DNA of 64,000 bases from Christensenella sp. UBA1750 (GCA_002315655.1 DCHO01000010.1:37002-101001); one strand, 5' to 3'. Counted from the stretch's first letter, positions 13,819-26,210 are shown. Numbers and translations: made by a program. Notes: generated by a model not told the origin, from the sequence alone.

Positions 13819-15003
13819 ATGAAAGAATTTGCTCTGAAATACGGCTGCAACCCCAACCAGAAGCCCGCCAGCATCTACATGGCAGACGGCAGCGAGCTTC
13901 CTGTGGAAGTGCTCAACGGCCGTCCCGGCTACATCAATTTCTTAGATGCCTTAAACTCCTGGCAGCTCGTCCGCGAGATCAAGACCATCCTGGGGATGCC
14001 CGCCGCCGCTTCCTTCAAGCACGTTTCCCCCACCTCCGCCGCTGTGGGTCTGCCGCTGTCCGATAAGCTCAAAAAGGCCTGCTTTGTCAACGACATCAAG
14101 GGTCTGGACGATTCTCCTCTGGCCTGCGCTTACGCTCGCGCCCGCGGAACCGACAGAATGTCCTCCTTCGGCGACTGGATCGCCTTATCCGACGAATGTG
14201 ACGTTACCACCGCAAAGCTCGTCAAGCGTGAAGTCTCCGACGGCATCATCGCGCCCGGGTACTCTCCCGAAGCGCTGGAAATCTTAAAGTCCAAGCACGG
14301 CGGCGCGTACAACGTGGTCAAGATCGACGCGAACTACATCCCCGAAGTGCAGGAAAAGAAGCAGGTGTTCGGCGTTACCTTTGAGCAGGGACGCAACAAC
14401 TTCGTTATTGACAAGAACCTGCTCTCCAACATCGTCACCAAGAATAAAGACCTGCCCGAAGAAGCCGTCCGCGACCTCATCATCTCCCTCATCACCTTAA
14501 AATACACCCAGTCCAACTCCGTGTGCTATGCCTATGACGGACAGGCCATCGGCGTGGGCGCGGGTCAGCAGAGCCGCATCCACTGCACCCGTCTGGCCGG
14601 TTCCAAAGCCGACACCTGGTTCCTGCGCCAGTACGACAAGGTGTTGAACCTGCCCTTCAAGCCCAAGATGGGGCGCCCCGAGCGCGACAACGTCATCGAC
14701 TCCTACATCAACAAGAACGAAGAGGATGTCTGCGCCGACGGCAACTGGCAGAAGTATTTCACCGAGCAGCCCGAACCCCTGACCGCCGAGGAAGCCAAGG
14801 CTTACCTTTCCACTATTTCCGGCGTTTCCTGCGGCTCTGATGCCTTCTTCCCCTTCTCCGACAACATCGAGCGTGCGTCTCGCTCCGGTGTTTCCTACGT
14901 TGCCGAGCCCGGCGGCTCTGTCCGTGATGATCTCGTCATCGAGTGCTGCGATCAGAAGAACATGGTCATGTGCTTCACCGGAATGCGCCTCTTCCACCAC
15001 TAA
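13819..15003 (+). CDS. purH: Phosphoribosylaminoimidazolecarboxamide (AICAR) formyltransferase, AICARFT domain only
   Basis: 394 aa. MKEFALKYGCNPNQKP... start and the ...FFPFSDNIERA...VAEPGGSVRD... motifs are those of the PurH transformylase domain. There is no MGS/cyclohydrolase domain. Confidence 0.85.
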   Translation: MKEFALKYGCNPNQKPASIYMADGSELPVEVLNGRPGYINFLDALNSWQLVREIKTILGMPAAASFKHVSPTSAAVGLPLSDKLKKACFVNDIKGLDDSPLACAYARARGTDRMSSFGDWIALSDECDVTTAKLVKREVSDGIIAPGYSPEALEILKSKHGGAYNVVKIDANYIPEVQEKKQVFGVTFEQGRNNFVIDKNLLSNIVTKNKDLPEEAVRDLIISLITLKYTQSNSVCYAYDGQAIGVGAGQQSRIHCTRLAGSKADTWFLRQYDKVLNLPFKPKMGRPERDNVIDSYINKNEEDVCADGNWQKYFTEQPEPLTAEEAKAYLSTISGVSCGSDAFFPFSDNIERASRSGVSYVAEPGGSVRDDLVIECCDQKNMVMCFTGMRLFHH

Positions 15004-15048
15004 GTTTCATCGTTTTCCCGAAAACCCAAATTCTCTCAAAATTTCCTA

Positions 15049-15077
15049 TTGAGAATTTTCTTCCACTGTGCTATACT
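15049..15077 (+). promoter_or_regulatory. Sigma-A promoter for tRNA-Arg
   Basis: TTGAGA (15049-54), 17-nt spacer, TATACT (15072-77). It ends 13 nt before the tRNA 5' end. Confidence 0.6.
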
Positions 15078-15090
15078 GTAAGAGTTGTAA

Positions 15091-15166
15091 GCGCCTGTAG
15101 CTCAGTGGATAGAGTGTCCGACTCCGACTCGGGAGACCGCAGGTTCGAATCCTGTCAGACGCACCA
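15091..15166 (+). tRNA. tRNA-Arg (anticodon CCG), CCA encoded
   Basis: Hand-folded cloverleaf. Acceptor GCGCCTG/CAGACGC (one mismatch). D arm GCTC-AGTGGATA-GAGT. Anticodon stem TCCGA/TCGGG with loop CTCCGAC. T arm GCAGG-TTCGAAT-CCTGT. Discriminator A plus CCA. 76 nt. Confidence 0.9.
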
Positions 15167-15168
15167 AA

Positions 15169-15217
15169 GGACGGCAATTTTGATACAAACAGTGTCAAGA
15201 TTACTGTCCTTTTTTTA
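15169..15217 (+). terminator. Rho-independent terminator after tRNA-Arg
   Basis: GGACGGCAATTTTGA pairs with TCAAGATTACTGTCC in a long imperfect stem, followed by TTTTTTT. Confidence 0.7.
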
Positions 15218-15243
15218 AGTTGCAATTTTTCTCATTCGGGGGA

Positions 15244-15272
15244 TTTACAAAATCTTTCCCGTATGCTACAAT
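15244..15272 (+). promoter_or_regulatory. Candidate sigma-A promoter for the leader of the 15484 membrane-protein gene
   Basis: TTTACA (15244-49), 17-nt spacer, TACAAT (15267-72). Confidence 0.5.
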
Positions 15273-15333
15273 ATTTCATGGATAATCCAAGAAAAGGAGT
15301 TGACTTCGGATGCAGTTCGGCGCAACAATCGCT

Positions 15334-15361
15334 AAGCAAGCAAGCAAGCAAGCAAGCAAGC
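15334..15361 (+). repeat. Tetranucleotide microsatellite (AAGC)x7
   Basis: Seven perfect tandem AAGC units read directly from the sequence. They lie inside a 19-codon mini-ORF (15310-15369) that has an AAGGAG RBS. Confidence 0.95.
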
Positions 15362-15406
15362 GTAGCTGAATTCTGCCCTTTTGTCAACACAAATACTGAA
15401 AACAAT

Positions 15407-15450
15407 GACGCTCTGCGCCGAATTTGAGTTCGGGTGTAGTGCGTCTTTTT
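15407..15450 (+). terminator. Leader terminator (attenuator candidate) upstream of the membrane-protein gene
   Basis: Imperfect stem of about 15 bp, from GACGC...CCGAA (15407-22) to TTCGG...GCGTC (15429-45), with a 6-nt loop, then TTTTT. Located 34 nt before the ATG at 15484. Confidence 0.65.
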
Positions 15451-15483
15451 GTTTAGATTTTTTAGAAAAAGAGAGGTATTTTT

Positions 15484-16035
15484 ATGGAAAAGAAGAGAGT
15501 TGTCCCCATTTGGCTGAGCGTGGTTTTGCTGGTTTTGTTAGTTGCCGGAATTGCCTTTGATATTTTTGCTTTATTAAAATATACCGAACTTGAATCGTGG
15601 AACACACCTGTCAGAATAATTGACTGTATTGCTTGTGGTATTGCTTTGGCTTACTGCTTAAAAGGTTACAGCAAAAATGCAGCCGGCTTTTTCAAAGCGT
15701 TTTGTATTGCTTATTGTGTCTCCCGCGTTTTCCCGATTTTTGCAATCGCAGAATCATATCGGGCGGGCAATTTTGTTTATCCCCTTATCTTGCTAATGCA
15801 TTTGATTACTTTTGCAGCAATGAGCATTTTTGTTGTTGCCAAAGAACTTGGCAAGAAAAAATCATGTGTATTAGCAGGAATTATTTTCGCATGTACGCTT
15901 GTAAACCTATTACCAATTCTCGGCACACCTTTCTACTTTATGATTGGAATCATTACAAATCTCATTTTGACCATCGTGTTCCTCATCATGGTCTACGCGA
16001 AATATCAGGATAAAGCCGCCCGCGGCACGAAGTAA
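15484..16035 (+). CDS. Small integral membrane protein, unknown function
   Basis: 183 aa with about 5-6 hydrophobic helices. RBS GAGAGG lies upstream. No recognisable motif. Confidence 0.6.
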   Translation: MEKKRVVPIWLSVVLLVLLVAGIAFDIFALLKYTELESWNTPVRIIDCIACGIALAYCLKGYSKNAAGFFKAFCIAYCVSRVFPIFAIAESYRAGNFVYPLILLMHLITFAAMSIFVVAKELGKKKSCVLAGIIFACTLVNLLPILGTPFYFMIGIITNLILTIVFLIMVYAKYQDKAARGTK

Positions 16036-16118
16036 CAAGGCTACCCTGATGGCTACGTCCACGAGTATCAAAAGAAATAAATCGCAGAGGGTACATTGTA
16101 TCAACCGTTCGGTTACAC

Positions 16119-16153
16119 AAAACCCCGCATTGTCTTTGGCAATGCGGGGTTTT
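16119..16153. terminator. Bidirectional terminator between convergent genes
   Basis: CCCCGCATTG pairs with CAATGCGGGG (perfect 10-bp stem), flanked by AAAA on the 5' side and TTTT on the 3' side. Confidence 0.8.
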
Positions 16154-16167
16154 GCATGATAAATCCG

Positions 16168-17193
16168 TTATTTCATCAGCATTTCATGATCCGTGGGGAG
16201 CGGTTTTGTCAAAGCGGACGGCTTTGTCTGGTACCACATACAGCAAGCGGTGTAGTCGTCATAACGGGGGCCTGTCCAGCCCAAGTTGTCCATGGTCATG
16301 CGGAAATTCTGCTCAAAATAGACAGGATCGGTAACGTGCCAGCGGTAGAACAGAAAGCGCTGCTGCGCGTCATACTGCGGATCGAAGCGGCCTAAGATGG
16401 CATACATCCCGACGTAGGGCGACTGGAAGGGCTGATAGGTGTGGTTCACATGGTCGTTTCCGAAGGCATACGCGCCGCAGAAATAGTCCTCCGTGCCGGT
16501 GTAGTTCATGGTGGGATAGGTGTCGCCGTCGATATACATCTTGGCCTCGCCCTCCACAAAGCAGGTGTTGTGGCCGTTGAGCCCCACCGCCAGCGTCATG
16601 CCCGCAAAACATCCGCTACCCTTTATGCCGTCAATCACGGTAAAGGCCTTGCCGGGGGTCACGGGATGCTCCTGCCGATAGGCGGCGTGGAAGTACATGG
16701 CATCCTCCGGCAATTCCCCGTACCAGCCTGAAATCATGTAATACAGGGTCTTTGGTTCGCTGCTGCGGTTCTCAATGGTGATTTTCCCGCGCTTGAAAAA
16801 GGGCATTTCAAAGACGCAGCTCACGCCCCGCGCCGGAGCCACGGTCATCATGGCCGAGGAAAAAGCGGGGTATTTTCCGTCTCTGTCGGCATACTGCTCG
16901 TCATAGGCACAGCCAAAGAAAGCCGACAGCGGCGCTTCCACAGAAGGAAAATCGCTGTCCTCCCAGTACATCCGCAGGATCATGCTGTGAGAGATCGCGC
17001 CCGTCATCCAGATATGCGTGAACATTCCCGACCCTTTGGCATCCGCCAGCACCACGGTCTCCCCGGCGGGAATTTCTAAGTAGGCCGAGAGCTTTTCACA
17101 GTCCTTGCCCCTTGTGCCGCCGCCTTTGGTGCCGTCCTTGTTTTCCGCCGAGAAACCGAAGCTGCGGCGGGCAGCATAACGCCAGTTTTCCAT
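16168..17193 (-). CDS. DUF2961 / GH172-like glycoside hydrolase family protein
   Basis: 341 aa. The N-terminal pattern SFGFSAENKDGTKGGG...IPAGETVVLADAKGSGMFTHIWMTG resembles DUF2961 proteins. Family is from memory only. Confidence 0.65.
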   Translation of the reverse strand: MENWRYAARRSFGFSAENKDGTKGGGTRGKDCEKLSAYLEIPAGETVVLADAKGSGMFTHIWMTGAISHSMILRMYWEDSDFPSVEAPLSAFFGCAYDEQYADRDGKYPAFSSAMMTVAPARGVSCVFEMPFFKRGKITIENRSSEPKTLYYMISGWYGELPEDAMYFHAAYRQEHPVTPGKAFTVIDGIKGSGCFAGMTLAVGLNGHNTCFVEGEAKMYIDGDTYPTMNYTGTEDYFCGAYAFGNDHVNHTYQPFQSPYVGMYAILGRFDPQYDAQQRFLFYRWHVTDPVYFEQNFRMTMDNLGWTGPRYDDYTACCMWYQTKPSALTKPLPTDHEMLMK

Positions 17194-17202
17194 AAAATCC
17201 TC

Positions 17203-18084
17203 CTATTTGTCGAGCAGCGCCGCACCGATCACCGGGGCCTCACCGCCCAAGGACGCAATGCGCATGGTGAAGCCCACGCCGACCGCGCCGGTATAGGACA
17301 GTTCCTTCACCTTATCTATGATGGGCTGCACATAGAGTTCTTCCTGGGCGCACAGGCCGCCGGAGAGCAGCACCGCATCGGGCGACAGAACATTGACAAT
17401 GCCTGAGAGTGCCTGTGCGGCGTAATCCACCGCCTCGGAAATGACCTGCTTTGCCTCAATGTTACCGGCTTTTGCAAGGTCGAACAGTTCCTCTGTGGTT
17501 TCGCAAATGCCGCGCTCTTTGGCGGTTTTTGCCATGCCTGTGCCGGATGCGTAGGCCTCCATGCAGCCGTGCTTGCCGCAGCCGCACACGCGCCCGTTCT
17601 TCACCACGGGAATGTGCCCCATCTCTCCCGCCGTGCCCAGCGCACCGTGCCAAATCCGATGGTTGAGGACAATGCCGCAGCCGATGCCCGTGCCAAGCGT
17701 CACACACAGCACGCAGGATTTGTCCTTCATTTCGGGGGTCAGCGATTCCGCCCACGCCGCGGCTCTTGTGTCCTGCACCAGCATGGGGCACACGCCGGTT
17801 TCTTCACGGAAGAGCTCCGCCACGGGTTCATTCCTCCATTTGAGGTTCGGTGTCCAGACGACAAGCCCTTGCACGTTGTCCACCGTGCCGGGGATGCCGA
17901 TGCCCACAAAGTCAATGGGTTCACCCTCTGCCAGCTTTTTTGCGATCTGCGCGGCCTGTTTTACGATCTCCTTGCAGGGCAATTCCGCGCCTGTGCTCAT
18001 GCGTTCCTTTTTGAGGATTTCCCCGTTTTCGTTGACCACGGCAATCACGGCCTTGGTGCCGCCGATGTCGATTCCGATTCTCAT
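17203..18084 (-). CDS. ROK family sugar kinase
   Basis: 293 aa. MRIGIDIGGTK ATP-binding start and the ROK zinc motif GHIPV...CGCGKHGCMEAY. Confidence 0.85.
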   Translation of the reverse strand: MRIGIDIGGTKAVIAVVNENGEILKKERMSTGAELPCKEIVKQAAQIAKKLAEGEPIDFVGIGIPGTVDNVQGLVVWTPNLKWRNEPVAELFREETGVCPMLVQDTRAAAWAESLTPEMKDKSCVLCVTLGTGIGCGIVLNHRIWHGALGTAGEMGHIPVVKNGRVCGCGKHGCMEAYASGTGMAKTAKERGICETTEELFDLAKAGNIEAKQVISEAVDYAAQALSGIVNVLSPDAVLLSGGLCAQEELYVQPIIDKVKELSYTGAVGVGFTMRIASLGGEAPVIGAALLDK

Positions 18085-18136
18085 ATCCCTTTTCTCCTTA
18101 GAAAGAAACCCACCATTTTCTGACGGGTTTTGTGTG

Positions 18137-19150
18137 TTATTCCTTGACGGGAGCCATGAAGGGTTCGCCGTCCTCCATCTCCATGTCGATCAGAGACTTC
18201 ATGAACTTGCCGTACTTGGTCTCCATCTCCTCCTGCGCCCGGTCAAACTGGTTGGCGGGGTAGACCATGGTGGGAATGTTCTTGAAGTCCCACTCCCCGT
18301 CGGCGATCATGCGCACGGCGTTGTCCACGCCTTCGGTGGAGAGCCAGTACTCTCTGGGATGGGTGTTGTGCATCACGATGGCCTTCACGCCCAACTGCTG
18401 CATATCCACCAGACGTTTTTCGCCGGTGTGATACGCGCCCACGCACAGAAGGCCGCAGCAGCCGGTCAGGTTGATGGCGGTGTCCAGCGATTCGTTGCTC
18501 TCACCCCACTCACAGACCACCTTGAAGCCCTTCATAATGTCGCGCTCGCCGTTTTCGTAGGTGAACTTCCTGATGGCTTCCTCGGGGGTGTAGACTTCCT
18601 TCGCGCCGTATTTCAGCGCATCCTGACGGGAGGTTTCCCGAATGTCCACCGCGACCACATAGAAGCCGCGCAGGGTGAGCAGGGAGATCGCGCCGCAGCC
18701 CATGTAGCCGCAGCCCACCACGCAGACCTTGGTGCCGGGCATGGTGTCCTTCACCTTGGAACAGGCGGAAAGCATACAGGACAGGGGTTCCAGCACCATG
18801 TCTTCGTCCCGGAGATTTTCGGGAATCTTCACGATCTTGCTCTTTTCCACGTTGGCAACCATGTATTTCTGCATGGCACCCGCGCCGGGCAGGGTGCTGC
18901 CCCAAAGGCCGGAAACATGATCGCCCACGGCAAAGCCCTTTACATTCTTGCCGACCTGCTCGATGATGCCCATGGGTTCATGGCCGAAGGTGTCGCCTTC
19001 CTTGGCGTGCGCCCAGTCGTAGTGCTCGGAATGGCACACGCCGCAATACTTGATGCGGATGAGCACGGAATCGTCGTCCATGACGGGCATGGGGATTTCT
19101 TTAAGTACGTTTTTCTTGGGGCCGATGGCCACAACCGCTTTATTAACCAT
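18137..19150 (-). CDS. Zinc-dependent alcohol/sugar dehydrogenase (MDR family)
   Basis: CGVCHSEHY and GHEPMG zinc-ligand motifs, plus GCGYMGCG Rossmann motif. Start placed at MVNKAVVAIG (19150), preceded by AAAGGAG. The track start at 19219 has no RBS. Confidence 0.8.
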   Translation of the reverse strand: MVNKAVVAIGPKKNVLKEIPMPVMDDDSVLIRIKYCGVCHSEHYDWAHAKEGDTFGHEPMGIIEQVGKNVKGFAVGDHVSGLWGSTLPGAGAMQKYMVANVEKSKIVKIPENLRDEDMVLEPLSCMLSACSKVKDTMPGTKVCVVGCGYMGCGAISLLTLRGFYVVAVDIRETSRQDALKYGAKEVYTPEEAIRKFTYENGERDIMKGFKVVCEWGESNESLDTAINLTGCCGLLCVGAYHTGEKRLVDMQQLGVKAIVMHNTHPREYWLSTEGVDNAVRMIADGEWDFKNIPTMVYPANQFDRAQEEMETKYGKFMKSLIDMEMEDGEPFMAPVKE

Positions 19151-19251
19151 AATAATCAGGCTCCTTTCAGGATATATACCATTACCGATATTATACCCGA
19201 TGAAAGGAGCCGTTTTCAATAGTTTTTATTCATTTTCTTAACATTATTTGA

Positions 19252-20097
19252 TTATTCGTCGGCAGCAGCTTCCTCATAGCCTTCCTGCGCCCGTTCCGCG
19301 TCCTTTTCGGCGTAATAGGCCTTTGCCCGCTCGTCATTCTGCCGCACGCGCTCCGCCAAACCTTCGCCCTCCAAATCCTCATAAGGGAAATCCAGCAGCG
19401 TCACCGTTCCGTCCGGGCGAACCGGGTTTTCTTCGTTTTCCTTGGGGTATTCCAAGGCAAAATCCAGCGTGGCAAAGCACAAATTGTTTTCGTCAAAATA
19501 CGCTTTCAGGTCAGACAGAATCTCGGCAGCACGCTCCACGGACACATTTTCATCGTCAATGTAAAGCGTCAGCTTACCCGATTGCCCGCCCATAATCGCA
19601 AGGTCGAACACCGTGTCATTGGGATAGTCCGCCATGTAGGTGCGCTCGCCCTCGGATTCCTCATACGCTTCCATGATTTCGCCGAAACAAATGGAGCTGT
19701 TGTAGCCCATGTTTTCCAGAATCGGCTTACAGAAGTCGTAATATTCCATGTTGAGTCGCTCGGCGGTGTTCCAGCCCTTCTGCACTAAAAAATCGTAATC
19801 ATCGTCCAGATAGTTGCCAAAGGAATCCGTGTAGATGGAAAAGTGCGTATCAATGCTGGTTGGCGATTCCACATAGGCAAAATAGGTGCCGTTCTGCTTG
19901 AAATTGTAGTTCACGTTGGCGATTTTCAAGCCCTCATCGGCAAACCGCTCTTTGCGCAGGATCTGTTCAGCCGTTCTTCTGCAAAGCAGTCGGGAAATGC
20001 CGTTGCCGTAAAAGGCGTTGACAAACAGGAAAACGGGAATCCCGATGACGAGCACCACCGCCAGCACAATCAGGATGATTTTTGTCTTCTTTTTCAC
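19252..20097 (-). CDS. Membrane-anchored hypothetical protein
   Basis: 281 aa. A single N-terminal TM helix (KIILIVLAVVLVIGIPVFLFV) and an acidic extracytoplasmic body. Confidence 0.55.
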   Translation of the reverse strand: MKKKTKIILIVLAVVLVIGIPVFLFVNAFYGNGISRLLCRRTAEQILRKERFADEGLKIANVNYNFKQNGTYFAYVESPTSIDTHFSIYTDSFGNYLDDDYDFLVQKGWNTAERLNMEYYDFCKPILENMGYNSSICFGEIMEAYEESEGERTYMADYPNDTVFDLAIMGGQSGKLTLYIDDENVSVERAAEILSDLKAYFDENNLCFATLDFALEYPKENEENPVRPDGTVTLLDFPYEDLEGEGLAERVRQNDERAKAYYAEKDAERAQEGYEEAAADE

Positions 20098-20577
20098 TTA
20101 ATCGTCTCCTCTTGCGCCCGCATCCCCCGGTATGGTGGAAAATTCCGGGTTGAAAATGAGCTGTCCGTTCTCCGACAGCCACATGAAACAGGCGTTTTCA
20201 AAGTTTATTGTGGGGTCAGTCAGCCCGTCCTCGTTGTAGTCCATGCAGTCGCAGCTTTTGTACGCGCCCAGTTCGCCGTCAAACACGGGATATTCGCAGA
20301 AGGCGATCTGCCTTTGTTCCGTTTCATCGGCATAGAAAGCCACGCCCTTGTCCTCGATGGCAAGATAGGCGTCCGTTTCCTGCCCGTCCACGGTGAATTG
20401 CACCGTTTCCTGCCCGTCCTGCCAATCCATTACGGGTTCCTGCGTAGGTTCAACGGTTGGATTGGCGGTTGGCTCTGCGGCGGGTGTCACGGTTGGATTC
20501 TCCTGCACGGCACAGCCCGCAAGCAGGAGGCATAAAGTCAACAAAAGGATCAAAAGTATTTTTTTCATTCCAATCAT
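20098..20577 (-). CDS. Small lipoprotein, unknown function
   Basis: 159 aa. Lipobox LLLAGCAV. Abuts the downstream gene with no gap. Confidence 0.6.
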   Translation of the reverse strand: MIGMKKILLILLLTLCLLLAGCAVQENPTVTPAAEPTANPTVEPTQEPVMDWQDGQETVQFTVDGQETDAYLAIEDKGVAFYADETEQRQIAFCEYPVFDGELGAYKSCDCMDYNEDGLTDPTINFENACFMWLSENGQLIFNPEFSTIPGDAGARGDD

Positions 20578-20580
20578 CCT

Positions 20581-21342
20581 TTACAGGTTCAGGTCTTCAA
20601 CCAGTTTTTTCCAGATTTCGTAGGACTTATCCAGCGTTTCCGCCTCCGCTCCGAATTTGACGGCAGAAAGCAGCCTTTCCTCCACTTTTTCAGGCTTAAC
20701 TGCAAAATCCTTTATAAATTGCAGAGAGCGCTTGCGGCTGGGGAACAGCACATGATTCAGTGCGAAAAGTGCCTGTATATAGGCATCCAGCGCATCCTCC
20801 AATGCGGCGTGATAGAGCAGGACTTCCTTTCGCACCACGGCGCGCTCGAAGTTTTCCGTTTCGCTTAAAATACCCTTGCAGTCGGACAGAATCCTCTGCC
20901 TGAGGGCTTCGGGGTATTCCTTTGCCATGTCTTTCAGCTCCTGCACACAGCCGTCCTCCGCTATGGAGATAAGGTTTTTATACATGGCCAGCCGGCCGGT
21001 GGTGTAGAAGCCTCCGTCCTCCTTAGGGGCGCGGTAGCCGTCCAAAATGGTTTGAATATCGCGCTTTGCCGCGTCCATCGTGAAATACATCACATAGGTT
21101 TCCACATTTTCAGGAAAAATCTGATCGCCCTCTCCCCAGCGTTCCCCTTTGAAGAAGGGAATTTCCCCGGAATACAGGGCTGTCCGTACCTCCGGCGGGG
21201 GCACGGTGTCACAATAGACCATTATGTCAATGTCGCCCTCGCCGGGCGCGGGAATGTCCAGCTTCGTCACGGCAACGCCTCGTACACCGGGGAGATGCGC
21301 CACGGATTTTCCAAATTCAATCAGCTTTTCTTCTGTCAGCAT
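20581..21342 (-). CDS. Nucleotidyltransferase-fold protein (DUF4037-like)
   Basis: 253 aa. The GVAVTK...GEGDIDIMVYCD pattern (G-x...DxD) is that of minimal nucleotidyltransferases. Family name is from memory. Confidence 0.5.
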   Translation of the reverse strand: MLTEEKLIEFGKSVAHLPGVRGVAVTKLDIPAPGEGDIDIMVYCDTVPPPEVRTALYSGEIPFFKGERWGEGDQIFPENVETYVMYFTMDAAKRDIQTILDGYRAPKEDGGFYTTGRLAMYKNLISIAEDGCVQELKDMAKEYPEALRQRILSDCKGILSETENFERAVVRKEVLLYHAALEDALDAYIQALFALNHVLFPSRKRSLQFIKDFAVKPEKVEERLLSAVKFGAEAETLDKSYEIWKKLVEDLNL

Positions 21343-21403
21343 ATTGTCACTCCTTCACAATTCCACTTCATATAGACGATGGATTTTCGGATTTGTTCCT
21401 TCT

Positions 21404-22003
21404 CTATTTCCCGTACACCGAGAAGAAGTGCCGGATGTGCTTTTCGATCAGCGTCATGGCCTCCGCTTCCACAGCCGGGTTGCGGTCTACGCGGAACATC
21501 TGCATGGAGATGGGCGACACAAACTCCATGGCCAGCAGCTGCACATCGTCCCGACGAATCAGCCCGCTGTCCATCCATGCGCGGATGAGAGCGGAATAAC
21601 AGTCCATAATGTCCTTATAGGTACGCTGCTCCTGCGCCCGTCCTAAATCTTCCATGCGGAATTGCTCGATGGTCAGCATTCTCCTTGTCTTGCTGATGAA
21701 ATCATCGTGCATGACAAAGGTCAACTCCTCCTTTACCTGCTGAATAATACATTCAACATTGCTGCTCACCGCCAGCTCTTTATAGTGCGGAATGTAGGAG
21801 CGCTTTTCGTAATACTCATCCGCTATGGTGTTCAGCGTATCGAAAATGTCCTGTTTGCTGTCAAAATGGCTGTATAAGGACGCCTTGCGGATGCCCACGC
21901 GGTCTGCGATCATCCCCACTGAGGTCGCCTCCACCCCGTTATGGGAAAACAGCTCCAGAGCGGCCTGTAATATCCTCTTTTTCGATTCCGACAATTCAAC
22001 CAT
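21404..22003 (-). CDS. TetR/AcrR family transcriptional regulator
   Basis: 199 aa. N-terminal helix-turn-helix ILQAALELFSHNGVEATSVGMIADRVGIRKASLYSHF. Confidence 0.8.
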   Translation of the reverse strand: MVELSESKKRILQAALELFSHNGVEATSVGMIADRVGIRKASLYSHFDSKQDIFDTLNTIADEYYEKRSYIPHYKELAVSSNVECIIQQVKEELTFVMHDDFISKTRRMLTIEQFRMEDLGRAQEQRTYKDIMDCYSALIRAWMDSGLIRRDDVQLLAMEFVSPISMQMFRVDRNPAVEAEAMTLIEKHIRHFFSVYGK

Positions 22004-22019
22004 GGTGCTTCTCCCTTCA

Positions 22020-22037
22020 CTACCTATCGTTAGGTAG
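22020..22037. promoter_or_regulatory. Palindromic operator candidate for the TetR regulator
   Basis: CTACCTA-TCGT-TAGGTAG is a perfect 7-bp inverted repeat. It lies between the -10 box and the RBS of the TetR gene. Confidence 0.45.
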
Positions 22038-22044
22038 CCTCCAT

Positions 22045-22073
22045 AGTATATAAAAAACCGCTGCCCTTGTCAA
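22045..22073 (-). promoter_or_regulatory. Sigma-A promoter of the TetR gene
   Basis: On the minus strand: TTGACA (22073-22068), 17-nt spacer, TATACT (22050-22045). Confidence 0.55.
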
Positions 22074-22080
22074 GCAGCGG
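22052..22080 (-). terminator. Terminator of the URO-D-family gene, overlapping the TetR -35 box
   Basis: On the minus strand: CCGCTGC-TTGACAAGG-GCAGCGG followed by TTTTTT. Confidence 0.6.
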
Positions 22081-22089
22081 CTGTAAAAC

Positions 22090-23145
22090 TTAATATGTGC
22101 CGACCTTCTTGTAGACCTCCATAACACGCCCGAAGTCCTTTAGGGAGATTCCCGGCGGGATGGAATGGTCGGAGGCAAAGATGTAGCCGCCATCCTTCAT
22201 CATTTCCGGCACAACGGTCTCGATCTCGGAAATGATGGCTTCCGGCTCCGTCCAGTGCACCGCGTTGATGCCGCCGTGGAGCAGCAGGTCTTTCCCGTAC
22301 TGCCTCTTTATGGCCACAGGGTCGCAGCCCGCCTTGACCTCCAAGGGATTCAGGCCATCCAGCCCCATTTTGATAAATTCCGGGATAAAGGGGCGAATGT
22401 CGCCGCAGGAATGGAGCCGCACGGGAATGTGGTGCGCGTGCCCCCAATCAATGGCCTTCTGATGGAAGGGCTTCACCAGCTCCCGATAAACCTTCATGGA
22501 GAAGAACTGGCTGTTCTTGTAACCCATGTCGTCATACCAGTGCAGCTCGTCAAAGGTGTAGCCCGCATCCCACACTTTGTTCATCATTTCAATGTCCATG
22601 GATAATTCTCTGTCAAACATATCCATGACCCATTCCGGCTCCTCCAGCATGGCCATGAGAAGCGTTTCGGTGCCTACCATGCCCGAATGGGTGATGTCAA
22701 ACCCGAACCAGAAGCCACCGGTGATCCAGCGTCCCTCCTGCCGCCATGTCTTGTAGTTGGCCTTCAGGTTCTCCCACGGGATGCGGTCGTCGCAGGGCAC
22801 CATGCGCGCCTTGGCTTCCTCCCAGATTTCCGGCGTGGTCACATGGAAATCCAGATGCTCCGGGGTGGTAGTGTGCTTCTTCCAGGAGCGCATGGTCGCG
22901 CCCCAGGAAGTTGTATAAATGCGGTAATCCTCGGTTTCCTCAATTGTTTTCAGGGAATAGCGCGGAGAATTGTCCAGCGAAATGTATGCGGTCTTGTCCA
23001 GATCGAAGTAGGAATAGTAGTCCCTTGTGGGCATCCCCTCCACGACCCATGCGTCCACCGCTTCTTCCCAGGCGTAGTCGATGATGGGCACCCGGTCGGC
23101 CTCCTTGTGGGCGTACATCCGGGCAATGCGTTCATAAGTGGTCAT
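22090..23145 (-). CDS. Uroporphyrinogen decarboxylase (URO-D) family protein, MtaA/CmuA-like
   Basis: 351 aa. The N-terminal YERIARMYAHKEADRVPIIDY and C-terminal LLHGGINAVH...GGYIFASDHSIPP are typical of this family in anaerobes. Confidence 0.7.
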   Translation of the reverse strand: MTTYERIARMYAHKEADRVPIIDYAWEEAVDAWVVEGMPTRDYYSYFDLDKTAYISLDNSPRYSLKTIEETEDYRIYTTSWGATMRSWKKHTTTPEHLDFHVTTPEIWEEAKARMVPCDDRIPWENLKANYKTWRQEGRWITGGFWFGFDITHSGMVGTETLLMAMLEEPEWVMDMFDRELSMDIEMMNKVWDAGYTFDELHWYDDMGYKNSQFFSMKVYRELVKPFHQKAIDWGHAHHIPVRLHSCGDIRPFIPEFIKMGLDGLNPLEVKAGCDPVAIKRQYGKDLLLHGGINAVHWTEPEAIISEIETVVPEMMKDGGYIFASDHSIPPGISLKDFGRVMEVYKKVGTY

Positions 23146-23164
23146 GTGCGTTCCTCCTTCTTTA

Positions 23165-24495
23165 TCAGAGTGAGATTTCCATGCCGTTTATATCCTGATT
23201 GAGCGTAAATCCGTCCTTTTTGCCGTCCGCTTCCACTTCGTATTCGCCCTTGAAGCCGCGGAAGCGCACCTCGCCGTTTGCATCGGTCACGCCCTCGCCG
23301 TTTGTCGTCCAGCGGGAATGGAACAGGTCGTGCAGTCGCTCGTATGCGGGCTTCGGGGTTAAGTCAAACCGCATCAGGCCGCCGTGATAGTAGTTTTCCC
23401 CGGCAGTCATGTCGCCCTGCGGCGCAAAGGCCGCATAGCCGTCCACAAGGTTCCAATAGATGACGGCCTCCATCACCGGGTGCGAGAACCAGATGGAATA
23501 GAGCTTTTCCAGCAGGTCTGCCTGCAATTCCTCGTCCTGCGCCTCATTGGAATAGGCGGGCAGGGTGATCTCCGTCACCTGCAAGGGCTTTCCGAACATG
23601 GCATAGTAGCTGTCCATGGCGGAATACAGCTTGGACGGGCTGAAAAAGGGAACGGCACATTTTGCTTCATCCTCTTTTTTGTAGAACATATGGTACTGCA
23701 GCCCGATGGCGTCAATCTCCGCGCCGCGCTCCATGGCGTAGGCGATGGACAGCGGGTACCAGCTTCTCTCCCCGCGGGTCACATCCCAGGCCTGTTCCGT
23801 GGCTTCGTTGATGATGAGCTCGTTCTTCGGCAGCACCGCCCGCGCGGTCTTGAAGCTCCACTCAATCAGGTCGCTTTCCCGGAAGAAAAGGCTGCCCCGG
23901 CGGTTGCCCTCGGGGGTTAATCTGGAATTGCACAGGGTCTCGTTGATGACCTCCATGCCGGGGATTTTTCCGCATACCGCTCCGCGATGCGCTCGATGCG
24001 GCGTTTAAGCAGGGCTTTGTGCTGCTCCAAATCCATGGGTACCCAGGTGGGCGTCCACTGGTCGTAGTTCAGGCAATGAAGCTTGGGGGTGATGTTCTTC
24101 TCCCCGCAATACTGCAAACACAGGTCAGGCACCGGGCGGCGATAGACCTTTTCGCTGTCCACCGTGAATCGTTCCTTGCCCTGCACAGGTTCCAGATCGC
24201 ACCAATAGAAGGGCAGGGTCGCCAGATTGAAGACCTTGGCAAAGGCCTCCTTGTATTTCTCATTCTTCTCGGCGTTCTCCATCTCATCCAGCATGAAAAT
24301 GTTCGCGCCGTGGAAAAATTCGTGCTTTTTAAGAGAATACTTCACTTTTACGCCGGACACGGGCTTTCCGTCCCTGTCCGTCACACGGATCACAGCGTCC
24401 GCCTTCCTGTGCTGCTCGATGCCGGATTCCACCCGCTCCTCTAACAACTCCTTTTCGTCCTCAAAGGGCTTTAAGATGATTTCCCGTCTGGTCAT
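23165..24495 (-). pseudogene. GH10-like glycoside hydrolase split by a frameshift
   Basis: Two overlapping minus-strand ORFs (23917-24495 and 23165-23956) together give one GH10-like protein. Features: WCDLEP...G in the first part, the acid/base motif ...GMEVINE at the junction, and the nucleophile motif QVTEITLP. The frames switch at GAAAAATCCCCGGCATGGAG, with an A5 run at 23965-23969. Confidence 0.65.
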
Positions 24496-24501
24496 GGTTG
24501 C

Positions 24502-25332
24502 TCACTCCTTTATCTCTTGTGTATATCTGCATTTGGGGAAATTGCCGCAGCCGAAAAACTGCTTTCCGGCATTTTCACCCTTTTTCACGGTTCTCAAAAT
24601 AAGCTGCCCACCGCACCGAGGACAAATCCACTCCCCTGCCGACGGTTGAAGCTCCGCAATCGGTTCCTGGTTCTTATCCTCTTTCGGTTTTTCCTTTTTT
24701 GCGTACTTTTCCTCTATATTTCGGATATGCGCCTCTTTGGTAGCAGTTTCGGCGTTTGTAAGCTTTTTGAGCTTTTCAAAGAGCGCAATCACTTCCGTTT
24801 CCGAAAGAACATCCGGAGAAGCATCCCACATCCGCTTTATGGTACCGTAGAGAAAATCCCGCTTGACCACAGGAACGGAGGTGGCCTCCACCTTTTTCAG
24901 CTCGCACCGCTCCGAGAAGACTATAATGGAAAAGAGCGGAATGTTTTCTCCGATGTATGCCCGCAGCCACTTGATATGGGTCTGATTCTGCAAAATCGGA
25001 TTATAGAGGCGGTTCTTCTGTTTGTTCGGCAGCATCACCGTCCAATAGGCGCTTTTTTCGTCTCCGAAGACCCAGCCGGAATAATTCTTGCTTTCCAGCA
25101 CATAAATGCCCTTCTGGCAAATGTAAATCACATCAATTTCGGAGGTTTCTCCGTTGTCCTTAGGCACATACAGGTTCCGAAGAATCTGTCCTTTTCGCCC
25201 GAAGAAATTCAACGTTTTAAGCCAGCGCACGGTCAGCTTCTCCCCGCGCCTTCCGATCCAGTCTGCCGTAAAGATGGATTTGAACAGGGCATCCAATACT
25301 ATATCAATAAACCCCTTTGCCATGATTTTCAC
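24502..25332 (-). CDS. NERD domain protein with C-terminal topoisomerase-type zinc ribbon
   Basis: 276 aa. NERD core RRGEKLT...EIDVIYICQKGIYVLESKNYSGWVFG. C-terminal CPRCGGQLILR...FFGCGNFPKCRY. Confidence 0.8.
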   Translation of the reverse strand: MKIMAKGFIDIVLDALFKSIFTADWIGRRGEKLTVRWLKTLNFFGRKGQILRNLYVPKDNGETSEIDVIYICQKGIYVLESKNYSGWVFGDEKSAYWTVMLPNKQKNRLYNPILQNQTHIKWLRAYIGENIPLFSIIVFSERCELKKVEATSVPVVKRDFLYGTIKRMWDASPDVLSETEVIALFEKLKKLTNAETATKEAHIRNIEEKYAKKEKPKEDKNQEPIAELQPSAGEWICPRCGGQLILRTVKKGENAGKQFFGCGNFPKCRYTQEIKE

Positions 25333-25415
25333 CTCGGGTATATTTTACAGGATTTAACATACGATGGCAAGGAGAAAAGAGAAGGTTGGGATAGAAAAAC
25401 AGAGAACCAAACGAG

Positions 25416-25449
25416 GAAAAAGCCTGTTCTCCGTTTCCGAAGAACAGGC
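25416..25449 (-). terminator. Rho-independent terminator after the cyclase gene
   Basis: On the minus strand: GCCTGTTCT-(10-nt loop)-AGAACAGGC followed by TTTTT. Confidence 0.65.
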
Positions 25450-25457
25450 ATCCCTGT

Positions 25458-26210
25458 TTATTCACAGATGGCGAACACGCGCACGGGCAGACCGTTTGCG
25501 CCTTTGAAGTTCGGCCAGGCGGCAACGAGCACCGCGCCGGCAGCAGGCACCTTGTCCAGTTTGCACATCAGCTCGATCTGCAGCTTGCCTTTTTCCAGTA
25601 CATAGCGTTCGCAAGCCAAATCGCCCGCTTTTGCGGCTTCCTTGGAAGCGTCGGTGTCCAGCGTTTCATGTCCGCTGGCAGCGGCGTTGCGGGTCTCATA
25701 GATGTACTGCAGCGCGGGCAGCGACCAGCCGGGGAAGTTCTCCGAACCGTCCTCCGCGATGCCGGACATGGCATTCATATCCGGCCATTTCTTGTACCAG
25801 TCCGTGCGCAACGCTACGAATGCGCCGTCGGGAATCGCGCCGTACTTGTTTTCGTAAGCCTTGATATCCTCCACCGTGACGGCGTAGGTGGGGTCTTTTG
25901 CCACCTTGTCGGTCACGTCAATGACGCACAGCGGGAACACGCCCTGCTTGGCAGCAAAGGCTTCGGCTGCAACGCCGCCCTTTACGAAGTGCGCAGGGAA
26001 GTCGATGTGGGTGCCGAACTGACCGGGAAACTTGAAGGTGGTGATGCGGCATTCCAGCATGGGATTGCCCCAGTCAAACACGGTCTTGTTCAGCTCCACG
26101 GAGCCCTCCGGGATGCCGCTCCAATAGGGTGAATCGTTGTCCATGGTGTGCGACAGCTCCACCCATTTCAGGTTTTGCGCTTCTGATAATGCGTTCCACA
26201 GCTTAAACAT
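25458..26210 (-). CDS. Cyclase family protein (kynurenine-formamidase-like)
   Basis: 250 aa. Contains GQFGTHIDFPAHF, which is the HxGTHxDxPxH-type metal motif. Confidence 0.8.
   Translation of the reverse strand: MFKLWNALSEAQNLKWVELSHTMDNDSPYWSGIPEGSVELNKTVFDWGNPMLECRITTFKFPGQFGTHIDFPAHFVKGGVAAEAFAAKQGVFPLCVIDVTDKVAKDPTYAVTVEDIKAYENKYGAIPDGAFVALRTDWYKKWPDMNAMSGIAEDGSENFPGWSLPALQYIYETRNAAASGHETLDTDASKEAAKAGDLACERYVLEKGKLQIELMCKLDKVPAAGAVLVAAWPNFKGANGLPVRVFAICE

What the first reader, a model, noticed from the sequence alone, without database searches (positions are those of the whole stretch)
15244..15483. Leader with a mini-ORF carrying an (AAGC)7 microsatellite, an antiterminator pairing and a terminator: possible phase-variable attenuator
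Seen, upstream of the 183-aa membrane-protein gene:
- a promoter, TTTACA-17-TACAAT
- an AAGGAG RBS (15294-99) and an ATG at 15310 opening a 19-codon ORF, MQFGATIAKQASKQASKRS*
- seven perfect AAGC units (15334-15361) inside that ORF
- TTCGGCGCA (15316-24), exactly complementary to TGCGCCGAA (15414-22), which forms part of the 5' arm of a terminator of about 15 bp (15407-15450, followed by T5)

Worked through by hand: with 6 (or 9) repeat units the mini-ORF shifts frame. It then reads 22 further codons, through the terminator's 5' arm, to a TGA at 15425-27. With 8 units it stops immediately after the repeat.

Inference: slipped-strand changes in repeat number would move the ribosome stop point relative to the terminator. 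That would toggle read-through into the membrane-protein gene. Such a mechanism would combine phase variation with translational attenuation.
Basis: partly seen in the sequence, partly recalled or inferred. Interest (0 to 1): 0.55.

Follow-up and report, generated by a model that had tools for sequence, protein, structure and literature searches.

The report
Repeat-switched leader-peptide terminator, gut Clostridia
Upstream of a small membrane-protein gene in an uncultured gut Oscillospiraceae bacterium, a slippery AAGC repeat sits inside a tiny leader reading frame ahead of a transcription terminator; two near-identical strains carry 7 and 9 units, which should switch the gene off and on as in the Streptococcus gallolyticus pilus switch.

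Summary
That covers the extended -10 promoter, the AAGGAG/ATG leader ORF, (AAGC)7, a strong terminator (z -5.6) and the frame arithmetic.

The repeat number varies. A metagenome contig that differs from the window by one SNP in 20.5 kb carries (AAGC)9, and two other assemblies break at the tract. The 7-unit allele stops the leader ORF 37 nt before the terminator. The 9-unit allele stops it in the terminator loop.

A diverged homologous leader (L094) has only (AAGC)2. It keeps the promoter, RBS, ATG and terminator, and its leader ORF ends 5 nt before the terminator. The proposed antiterminator pairing is not conserved there (-18.5 vs -6.9 kcal/mol), and the upstream hairpin is no better than chance.

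The mechanism is not new. It matches the GCAGA-repeat leader-peptide attenuator of S. gallolyticus pil1/pil3 (Danne 2014). This is a new member of that kind, with a different repeat, clade and target: a 6-TM protein of an uncharacterised family in a low-GC islet beside tRNA-Arg.

Transcription, translation and switching remain untested.

The parts
15168..15216 (+). Hairpin plus T7 directly after tRNA-Arg(CCG) 15091-15166. It is the terminator of the tRNA transcript and the 5' edge of the low-GC cassette that is conserved in L094.
   Evidence: Fold -21.6 kcal/mol, z -6.5. tRNA. Aligned to L094 260-305. GC drop.
15244..15272 (+). Sigma-70-type promoter TTTACA-17-TACAAT with TG at 15264-65 (extended -10). 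The predicted TSS is about 15278-15281.
   Evidence: 10/12 matches, TG present. Position conserved in L094 as TTGAGG-17-TATAAT with TG. Consensus match only; no transcript data.
15294..15299 (+). Shine-Dalgarno AAGGAG of the leader ORF, 10 nt before the ATG.
   Evidence: Identical AAGGAG lies 9 nt before the ATG in L094. It is unpaired in the predicted folds.
15310..15369 (+). Leader ORF of the 7-unit allele: 19 codons, MQFGATIAKQASKQASKRS*. With 9 units it becomes 41 codons ending at 15425-27.
   Evidence: The 41-aa form was called as a gene on the 9-unit contig. The first 11 codons are conserved in L094 (MQFCVTIAKQA).
15334..15361 (+). (AAGC)7 perfect tetranucleotide repeat, entirely inside the leader ORF. 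This is the hypermutable element.
   Evidence: 9 units in L001/L098, 2 units in L094. Contigs L002/L099 and L003 end at or in the tract. Markov simulations reach at most 4 units.
15363..15369 (+). Two stop codons in two frames right after the repeat. TAG 15363-65 stops n = 2 mod 3 and TGA 15367-69 stops n = 1 mod 3. Both give short leader peptides, with 37-41 nt between the stop codon and the terminator's 5' arm.
   Evidence: In L094 the TAG is CAG and the TGA is kept.
15314..15324 (+). 5' strand of the alternative (antiterminator-like) pairing, within leader codons 2-5.
   Evidence: Duplex with 15414-24 is -18.5 kcal/mol and dominates in a nascent RNA ending at 15424. About 1% of shuffles reach it. 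Not conserved in L094 (-6.9), so its role is doubtful.
15407..15450 (+). Intrinsic terminator. The 5' arm is 15407-22, the loop 15423-26, the 3' arm 15427-45 and the T5 run 15446-50. No promoter-like site lies between it and the gene.
   Evidence: -22.4 kcal/mol, z -5.63, 0/200 shuffles. Pairing probability 0.99 in free leader RNA for n = 6-9. Conserved in L094 (-19.4, z -3.6). No promoter-like site after 15329 and before the ATG.
15425..15427 (+). TGA that ends the leader ORF when n = 0 mod 3 (6, 9, 12). It lies in the terminator loop, so a terminating ribosome would cover both arms.
   Evidence: Masking a ribosome footprint at this stop abolishes the terminator in the fold model.
15470..15476 (+). 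Shine-Dalgarno (AGAGAGG) of the structural gene, 7 nt before the ATG.
   Evidence: Conserved in L094.
15484..16035 (+). Regulated gene: a 183-aa protein with six predicted transmembrane helices, from an uncharacterised family with conserved ends (MEKKRVVPIW..., ...FLIMVYAKYQDKAARGTK) and a variable middle.
   Evidence: No Pfam, NCBIfam, PHROG or PADLOC hit. AF2 pLDDT 82, six helices. No PDB fold match. 818 cluster representatives found by profile search. Alignments.
16119..16153 (.). Inverted repeat CCCCGCATTG / CAATGCGGGG flanked by A and T runs, between the convergent 183-aa and GH172 genes. It is probably a bidirectional terminator and marks the 3' edge of the low-GC islet.
   Evidence: Read directly from the sequence. 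GC profile. Not folded with a tool.

Best explanation
This is a phase-variable, leader-peptide-dependent transcription attenuator of the Streptococcus gallolyticus pil1/pil3 type.

Proposed steps:
1. Transcription starts at the extended -10 promoter (15244-72).
2. Ribosomes load at AAGGAG/ATG (15294-15312) and translate a short leader ORF that contains the (AAGC)n tract.
3. Slipped-strand mispairing changes n by whole units and so shifts the leader frame.
4. For n = 1 or 2 mod 3 (for example the window's 7 units), the ribosome stops at TGA 15367-69 or TAG 15363-65. That is 37-41 nt before the terminator. The hairpin 15407-45 plus T5 forms, and most transcripts end before the 183-aa membrane-protein gene (low/OFF).
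5. For n = 0 mod 3 (for example the 9-unit allele seen in a near-identical strain), the ribosome reads on to TGA 15425-27 in the terminator loop. It occupies the 5' arm, so the polymerase reads through into the gene (high/ON).

Shown here: all sequence elements, the frame logic, the stability of the terminator, natural 7/9 polymorphism, and conservation of the promoter, RBS, ATG and terminator in a diverged homologue whose fixed ORF ends 5 nt before the terminator.

Inferred: promoter use, translation of the leader, ribosome-polymerase proximity, and the ON/OFF outcome.
For: 1. The anatomy is confirmed.
2. The repeat is polymorphic. L098 (JGI 3300001598) matches window 5492-26035 with one SNP and a single 8-nt gap, giving 9 vs 7 units. 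Two other assemblies end at or in the tract.
3. The two observed alleles fall in the two predicted states. The 41-aa long form was called as a gene on the 9-unit contig.
4. The terminator is strong and non-random (z -5.63). It forms with p = 0.99 in free RNA for n = 6-9, and is abolished when a ribosome footprint is placed at the long-frame stop.
5. No promoter-like site lies between the terminator and the gene, so the gene depends on read-through.
6. The homologous leader in L094 is 65-95% identical in DNA, while the downstream proteins are 37% identical. It keeps the promoter, SD, ATG and terminator, has only (AAGC)2, and its ORF stops 5 nt before the terminator arm. This is the arrangement expected if the ribosome reaching the terminator is what matters.
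7. The experimental precedent has the same geometry. In pil1, the short leader peptide stops 39 bp before the terminator and gives low expression. Stops within or after it give high expression. Mutating the ATG, adding stops or deleting the terminator behaves as predicted (PMC3894217).
8. SSRs are otherwise almost absent from this genome region and from relatives.
Against: - There are no transcript, ribosome or read-level data.
- Only two complete alleles were seen. The two other spanning contigs on record could not be displayed.
- Contig breaks at a 28-36-nt repeat can also be an assembler effect.
- An open third frame of 22 codons after the repeat is not improbable in AT-rich DNA. This is my estimate, not a computed value.
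- A second ATG at 15278 has no SD and is not conserved in L094. It lies at the likely TSS, in the frame that is long for n = 7. If it were used as a leaderless start, the predicted phases would be permuted.
- Ribosome-polymerase coupling is reported to be loose in some Firmicutes (my own knowledge), although pil1 works in a Firmicute.
- The target is not an obvious surface antigen. Its function is unknown.
Confidence: 0.55

Rival explanations
1. The microsatellite is hypermutable but functionally neutral. The leader is a translation-dependent or constitutive attenuator, as in L094. The AAGC tract expanded by chance, and its length changes have no selected regulatory role. Any expression change is a by-product.
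For: The homologous leader functions, presumably, with only 2 units. Only two alleles were observed. The family's other members have no SSR or leader. No phenotype is known for the gene.
Against: A perfect 7-9-unit tetranucleotide tract is a large outlier in a genome region and clade almost devoid of SSRs. It lies exactly inside the leader ORF. Two stops in two frames follow it immediately, and the third frame ends in the terminator loop. Frame shifts there must change where ribosomes stop, whether or not this was selected.
Confidence: 0.2
2. The switch is RNA-structural and independent of translation. Repeat length changes the loop of the upstream hairpin (15299-15388), and so the competition between that hairpin, the 11-bp pairing 15314-24/15414-24 and the terminator. 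The result would be graded rather than period-3 control.
For: The repeat sits in the apical loop of the predicted hairpin. The 11-bp alternative pairing (-18.5 kcal/mol) dominates in a nascent RNA that ends before the terminator's 3' arm. It is reached by only about 1% of shuffles.
Against: The hairpin is no more stable than shuffles (z -0.38). The full-length free RNA forms the terminator with p = 0.99 for n = 6-9, and the predicted energies do not change monotonically with n. The alternative pairing is lost in L094 without compensation (-6.9 kcal/mol), while the SD, ATG and terminator are kept.
Confidence: 0.1
3. The repeat phase-varies a small protein rather than the downstream gene. The 41-aa product of the n = 0 mod 3 alleles is the functional molecule, the hairpin at 15407-50 is simply its terminator, and the 183-aa gene is expressed by leaky read-through regardless.
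For: The 41-codon ORF has a strong SD and was called as a gene on the 9-unit contig. Its stop overlaps a terminator, as at the end of many genes.
Against: In L094 the ORF from the same ATG continues in a different frame after the repeat and gives an unrelated C-terminal peptide (MQFCVTIAKQAQLNSAFSSTQIL*). The post-repeat peptide sequence is therefore not conserved, while the DNA and terminator are. The exact 41-aa sequence is not in the 15-billion-protein collection. No separate promoter exists for the 183-aa gene.
Confidence: 0.05
4. The 7 vs 9 difference is an assembly artefact. It would reflect miscounting of a low-complexity tract by short-read assemblers, with the true tract invariant.
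For: Two assemblies break at the tract, which shows that assemblers struggle with it. No reads could be inspected.
Against: Tracts of 28 and 36 nt are well within single reads. The two contigs come from different samples and also differ by a SNP. The difference is exactly two whole units with perfect flanks.
Confidence: 0.05

Closest known systems
Streptococcus gallolyticus pil1 and pil3 leader-peptide / GCAGA-repeat attenuators (Danne et al. 2014, PMC3894217)
   Same: - The order of elements is the same: promoter, SD+ATG leader ORF that contains the whole SSR, an intrinsic terminator of about -19 to -28 kcal/mol, then the structural gene.
- The repeat unit is not a multiple of 3.
- The short-frame stop lies about 37-39 nt before the terminator, and the long-frame stop lies within it.
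- Repeat number differs between isolates.
- The host is a gut-associated Firmicute.
   Different: - The repeat is 4-nt AAGC with 7-9 units, not 5-nt GCAGA with 13-22 units.
- Two of three frames are short here, whereas pil1 has one short frame.
- The target is a single small 6-TM protein gene, not a pilus operon.
- The host is an uncultured Oscillospiraceae/Acutalibacteraceae-like Clostridium.
- No sequence homology is claimed or was tested.
- There is an extra 11-bp alternative pairing of doubtful relevance.
- No experimental data exist.
Tetranucleotide contingency loci of Haemophilus influenzae and Neisseria, for example the GCAA repeats of lex2A/oafA and the CAAT repeats of lic genes (own knowledge, not tested here)
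   Same: Perfect tetranucleotide tract. GCAA is the same repeat as AAGC in another register. Slippage by whole units shifts a reading frame.
   Different: In those loci the repeat lies in the 5' part of the regulated gene's own coding sequence and acts by truncating the protein. Here it lies in a separate upstream mini-ORF, 123 nt before the structural ATG, and is predicted to act on transcription termination.
SSRs in 5' untranslated leaders, for example the Moraxella catarrhalis uspA2 AGAT repeat and the H. influenzae hmw 7-bp repeats (own knowledge, not tested here)
   Same: The repeat lies between the transcription start and the structural gene, and repeat number modulates mRNA level.
   Different: Those repeats are not described as lying in a translated leader ORF ahead of a terminator. 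Their effect is graded with length rather than period-3.
Invertible leader switches that gate termination in Clostridia and E. coli: C. difficile flgB and E. coli fim (PMC12360218), and cwpV (own knowledge)
   Same: A heritable, reversible DNA change in the leader decides whether transcription terminates before the structural genes.
   Different: The DNA change there is site-specific inversion by a recombinase, and termination is Rho-dependent or through an orientation-specific hairpin. No inverted repeats or recombinase are involved at this locus.
Classical leader-peptide attenuators (trp, his, pyrBI; own knowledge)
   Same: The position of a ribosome on a leader ORF decides whether a downstream intrinsic terminator forms. 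L094's fixed ORF ending 5 nt before the terminator resembles the pyrBI-type design, in which a closely following ribosome blocks the hairpin.
   Different: There is no run of regulatory codons and no conserved antiterminator. The variable here is genetic (the frame) rather than physiological (tRNA charging or NTP supply).

Membership tests
SSR-in-leader-peptide transcription attenuator (S. gallolyticus pil1/pil3 type) | Promoter upstream of a leader ORF that has its own SD and ATG | tested here: met
   TTTACA-17-TGcTACAAT at 15244-72. AAGGAG 15294-99 and ATG 15310. All are conserved in L094. This is a consensus and conservation argument; no TSS mapping.
SSR-in-leader-peptide transcription attenuator (S. 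gallolyticus pil1/pil3 type) | A simple sequence repeat, with unit length not divisible by 3, lying entirely inside the leader ORF | tested here: met
   (AAGC)7 at 15334-61 lies within ORF 15310-15369.
SSR-in-leader-peptide transcription attenuator (S. gallolyticus pil1/pil3 type) | Repeat number varies between isolates or cells | tested here: met
   7 units in the window and 9 units in L001/L098, with one SNP in 20.5 kb otherwise. Two further contigs end at the tract. Only two complete alleles were seen, and within-population variation was not testable.
SSR-in-leader-peptide transcription attenuator (S. gallolyticus pil1/pil3 type) | Intrinsic terminator between leader ORF and structural gene, with no promoter after it | tested here: met
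   Hairpin 15407-45 plus T5, -22.4 kcal/mol, z -5.63. Conserved in L094. No promoter-like site between 15330 and 15483.
SSR-in-leader-peptide transcription attenuator (S. gallolyticus pil1/pil3 type) | Frame-dependent stop position: short frames stop at least about 28 nt before the terminator, and the long frame stops within or after it | tested here: met
   37 nt (TGA) and 41 nt (TAG) lie between the short-frame stop codon and the 5' arm. The long-frame TGA 15425-27 is in the loop. Thresholds are from PMC3894217.
SSR-in-leader-peptide transcription attenuator (S. gallolyticus pil1/pil3 type) | Downstream transcription rises in long-frame variants and depends on leader translation | not testable with these tools
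   Needs RNA or reporter data. Only a fold model with a masked ribosome footprint was run.
Classical ribosome-stalling attenuator (trp/his type) | Conserved antiterminator that competes with the terminator, and a run of regulatory codons in the leader peptide | tested here: not met
   The alternative pairing is -18.5 kcal/mol in the window but -6.9 in L094. About 1% of shuffles reach it. The leader peptide has no codon run other than the repeat-encoded KQAS.
Known cis-regulatory RNA families (riboswitches, T-box, ribosomal-protein leaders; Rfam 15) | Match to a covariance model in the leader | tested here: not met
   Only the tRNA reached threshold in 14900-15700. The best leader hit was a mir-6827 model at E = 3.4.
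Promoter-spacer or in-gene SSR contingency locus (Haemophilus/Neisseria type) | Repeat lies between -35 and -10, or inside the regulated gene's own coding sequence | tested here: not met
   The repeat starts 62 nt after the -10 hexamer, and its last base lies 123 nt upstream of the structural ATG at 15484.

The most novel reading that the evidence does not exclude
The locus may capture the birth of a contingency switch in a commensal gut Clostridium.

In this reading, a pre-existing, non-variable leader-peptide attenuator (L094: (AAGC)2, ORF ending at the terminator) was converted into a stochastic ON/OFF switch. The conversion needed expansion of the proto-repeat and a single C-to-T change that created the TAG after it.

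The regulated gene belongs to a large uncharacterised family of about 180-aa 6-TM proteins. The family has conserved ends, hypervariable cores and tandem paralogue arrays, and neighbouring cassettes carry their own promoter-spacer (TC)n repeats. Together these could form a previously unrecognised variable envelope-protein system in Oscillospiraceae, for example phage-receptor, immunity or exclusion functions.
Probability: 0.2. Interest if true: 0.7.

Novelty: new member of a known kind. Interest (0 to 1): 0.5.

Why it matters
In the searchable literature, the only experimentally documented SSR-driven frame switching of a leader peptide that gates a terminator is at two pilus loci of one Streptococcus species.

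A second, unrelated instance has a different repeat unit and lies in an uncultured herbivore-gut Oscillospiraceae. It would show that the design is a recurrent solution rather than a curiosity.

It would also extend SSR-based phase variation to abundant commensal Clostridia. There, phase variation is mostly known from invertible DNA.

The locus gives a simple search template: SD+ATG mini-ORF, non-triplet SSR, terminator.

It flags an uncharacterised 6-TM protein family as a likely target of bet-hedging, and it offers a two-allele natural experiment (7 vs 9 units) plus a non-variable homologue for testing.

Tried and rejected
Searches that found nothing or could not be completed:
- Two DNA-pattern scans of metagenome contigs for the repeat flanks found nothing.
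- A profile-based scan of genome contigs for the 183-aa family found no relative.
- A purH-based scan gave 80 Oscillospiraceae/Acutalibacteraceae loci at about 80% identity. None had the leader, the gene or a comparable SSR.
- A viral-contig scan for the conserved leader core found nothing.
- Four look-ups failed to display the other two spanning contigs on record. Neither the 54/49-aa frame-2 ORFs nor the 41-aa product is on record.
- Rfam at a permissive threshold found no known RNA family in the leader.
- Pfam, NCBIfam, PHROGs and PADLOC searches and a PDB fold search gave no function for the 183-aa protein.

Ideas considered and set aside:
- The large hairpin enclosing the repeat is rejected as a supported element (z -0.38).
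- The antiterminator is rejected as a conserved element.
- The weak internal promoter-like site TTGACT-18-AACAAT at 15300-29 scores 9/12 and is degraded in L094.
- The ATG at 15278 as a leaderless start has no SD and is absent from L094. It is kept as a caveat.
- Other family members (L004-L008, L092-L093, L095-L097) have no such leader.

Full report
**1. Observation**

- A tRNA-Arg(CCG) gene lies at 15091-15166. It is followed by its own hairpin terminator at 15168-15216 (-21.6 kcal/mol, z -6.5).
- The promoter is TTTACA (15244-49), a 17-nt spacer and TACAAT (15267-72). TG sits one base before the -10, giving an extended -10. The scan scores it 10/12.
- AAGGAG (15294-99) lies 10 nt before ATG 15310. 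That ATG opens MQFGATIAKQASKQASKRS*, ending at TGA 15367-69.
- (AAGC)7 occupies 15334-61 and is perfect.
- A hairpin at 15407-45 is followed by T5 (15446-50). It folds at -22.4 kcal/mol, z -5.63, and none of 200 shuffles reach it. The simple consensus terminator scan did not list it, because the stem has a bulge and a mismatch.
- The structural gene has its own SD (15470-76) and starts at 15484.
- No promoter-like site lies between the terminator and that ATG. Transcription of the gene therefore has to pass the terminator.

**2. More than chance?**

- The AAGC tract is the only SSR of note in 64 kb. Third-order Markov simulations of the window never gave more than 4 tetranucleotide units.
- About 720 kb of fetched DNA, mostly purH loci of related Oscillospiraceae/Acutalibacteraceae MAGs, contains nothing comparable. 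The exceptions are this same locus and a (TC)6/8 tract in another organism.
- The 9-bp exact complementarity 15316-24/15414-22 extends to 11 bp with one G-U pair (-18.5 kcal/mol). It is reached by about 1% and 0.6% of dinucleotide shuffles.
- The long hairpin 15299-15388, which places the repeat in its loop, is no better than shuffles (z -0.38).

**3. Frame logic**

I rebuilt the leader with 2 to 13 units.
- n = 1 mod 3 stops at TGA 15367-69.
- n = 2 mod 3 stops at TAG 15363-65.
- n = 0 mod 3 reads 22 further codons to TGA 15425-27, which is in the terminator loop.
- The short-frame stops lie 37-41 nt before the terminator's 5' arm.

**4. The repeat number varies in nature**

- The exact 183-aa protein is on five contigs.
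- The JGI contig 3300001598|EMG_10000332 carries (AAGC)9, and a 41-aa gene was called there.
- Over 20,552 nt that contig differs from window 5492-26035 by one SNP (window 22305) and by the single 8-nt gap in the repeat.
- A Logan contig from SRR1221442 is 100% identical to window 15362-26025 and starts exactly after the repeat. A JGI 3300020112 contig starts inside the repeat.
- Two near-clonal populations therefore differ essentially only in the tract. The two complete alleles belong to the two predicted classes: 7 is short and 9 is long.
- I could not display the other two spanning contigs or inspect reads.

**5. Folding**

- Free leader RNA forms the terminator with probability 0.99 for n = 6-9, and the alternative pairing does not form.
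- Masking a 28-nt ribosome footprint at the long-frame stop removes the terminator.
- Masking it at the short-frame stops leaves the terminator at p = 0.81 (n = 7) or 0.96 (n = 8).
- In a nascent RNA ending at 15424, the 11-bp pairing dominates. A kinetic role cannot be excluded.

**6. A homologous leader without a slippery repeat**

- The 183-aa protein has no Pfam, NCBIfam, PHROG or PADLOC match.
- A word-indexed search found six relatives. A full profile search found 818 cluster representatives of about 175-190 aa.
- Most relatives inspected have ordinary short upstream regions.
- One relative, P0005 on L094 (37% identical protein), is preceded by a clear homologue of this leader. The DNA is 65-95% identical over about 320 nt, far more than the coding region.
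- That leader keeps the upstream hairpin, the promoter (TTGAGG-17-TGcTATAAT), AAGGAG, the ATG, the first 11 codons (MQFCVTIAKQA) and the terminator (-19.4 kcal/mol, z -3.6).
- It has only (AAGC)2, and the TAG after the repeat is CAG. Its ORF, MQFCVTIAKQAQLNSAFSSTQIL*, ends at a TAA 5 nt before the terminator's 5' arm.
- After the repeat it uses a different frame from the window's long form. The peptide sequence is therefore not conserved, while the point where the ribosome stops is. This argues that translation up to the terminator is the functional feature.
- The alternative pairing is not conserved there. It drops to -6.9 kcal/mol through two uncompensated changes, so I do not count it as part of the mechanism.

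**7. Comparison with what is known**

- A full-text search returned Danne et al. 2014 (PMC3894217) as the top hit.
- In S. gallolyticus, pil1 and pil3 are preceded by a promoter, a leader ORF with SD and ATG that contains 22 (or 13) GCAGA repeats, and a stem-loop terminator.
- The short peptide stops 39 bp before the terminator and gives low expression. Out-of-frame repeat changes move the stop into or past the terminator and give high expression.
- ATG mutation, added stops and terminator deletion confirmed translation-mediated antitermination.
- The present locus meets every sequence-level criterion of that design (see the membership table).
- It differs in repeat unit (4 nt), repeat number, the number of short frames (two of three), target gene and host clade.
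- Further searches found no other documented system of this type.
- It is therefore a new member of a known kind, not a new mechanism.

**8. Context**

- The leader and gene form a low-GC islet of about 1 kb (39-42% GC against 57-60% in the flanks) directly 3' of the tRNA gene. The islet ends at an inverted repeat at 16119-53.
- The protein is predicted to have six transmembrane helices (pLDDT 82). It has no significant PDB fold match.
- Family members have conserved N- and C-termini and variable middles, and they occur in tandem arrays.

**9. Verdict**

- The antiterminator is doubtful, the mechanism is not novel, and all functional steps remain inferred.
- I put confidence at about 0.55 that repeat-number changes switch expression of the 183-aa gene through leader translation.
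- The main rival (0.2) is a hypermutable tract with no selected role.

Noticed in passing
window 16033-16080; L094 110-155 and about 1090-1135: After the TAA stop of the 183-aa gene, the next 14 codons in frame read QGYPDGYVHEYQKK*. The same peptide-like stretch, (D/P)YPEGYVH(E/K)YQ(K/M)K*, follows the stops of two family genes in L094. The differences are mostly at third codon positions, but there the stretch is in the +1 frame relative to the stop. This looks like coding constraint beyond the annotated stop, from read-through or frameshifting, or from a decayed C-terminal extension.
   Followed up: partly
window 15168-16160: A low-GC islet of about 1 kb (39-42% GC against 57-60% in the flanks) lies directly 3' of tRNA-Arg(CCG). 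It comprises a hairpin, promoter, leader, the 183-aa gene and a tail. The same cassette order recurs between tandem family genes in L094, which suggests a duplicating or horizontally acquired unit.
   Followed up: partly
L095 783-794 and L096 131-146: (TC)6 and (TC)8 dinucleotide repeats lie between TTGACT and TAGTAAAAT, upstream of two genes of about 105 aa. These genes flank a truncated member (P0003) of the same membrane-protein family in an AT-rich organism. With (TC)6 the spacer to TAGTAA is 17 nt. With (TC)8 it is 21 nt. This looks like a promoter-spacer SSR in two copies of a repeated cassette.
   Followed up: no
L007 2869-2895 and 3611-3637: A 27-bp perfect inverted repeat (cccggacgccggacgggacggacaccc and its reverse complement) brackets the first of two tandem family genes together with its promoter. 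It could be an invertible or recombination-prone segment.
   Followed up: no
window 15167-15506 vs L094 250-565: The leader DNA is 65-95% identical between the two loci, with a peak of 95% at 15387-15426. The proteins they precede are only 37% identical, and the middle of the coding region is 27-60% identical in DNA. The gene ends and the leader are therefore conserved, or have been exchanged by recombination, while the core diverges.
   Followed up: partly
window 15278-15280: An ATG lies at the likely transcription start, 6 nt after the -10 hexamer. It is in the frame that, for 7 units, reads to the TGA in the terminator loop. It has no SD and is not conserved in L094. If it were used as a leaderless start, the predicted ON/OFF phases would be permuted.
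   Followed up: partly
L092/L093 (Logan SRR1221442 and NCBI GCA_002314835.1, contig DCHM01000019.1): Another family member (P0007, 185 aa) sits 32 nt downstream of a 419-aa protein with Flg_new repeats, which is probably a surface protein. It has no leader. It comes from the same sequencing run as the contig identical to the window, so it may be a paralogue in the same or a co-resident genome.
   Followed up: no
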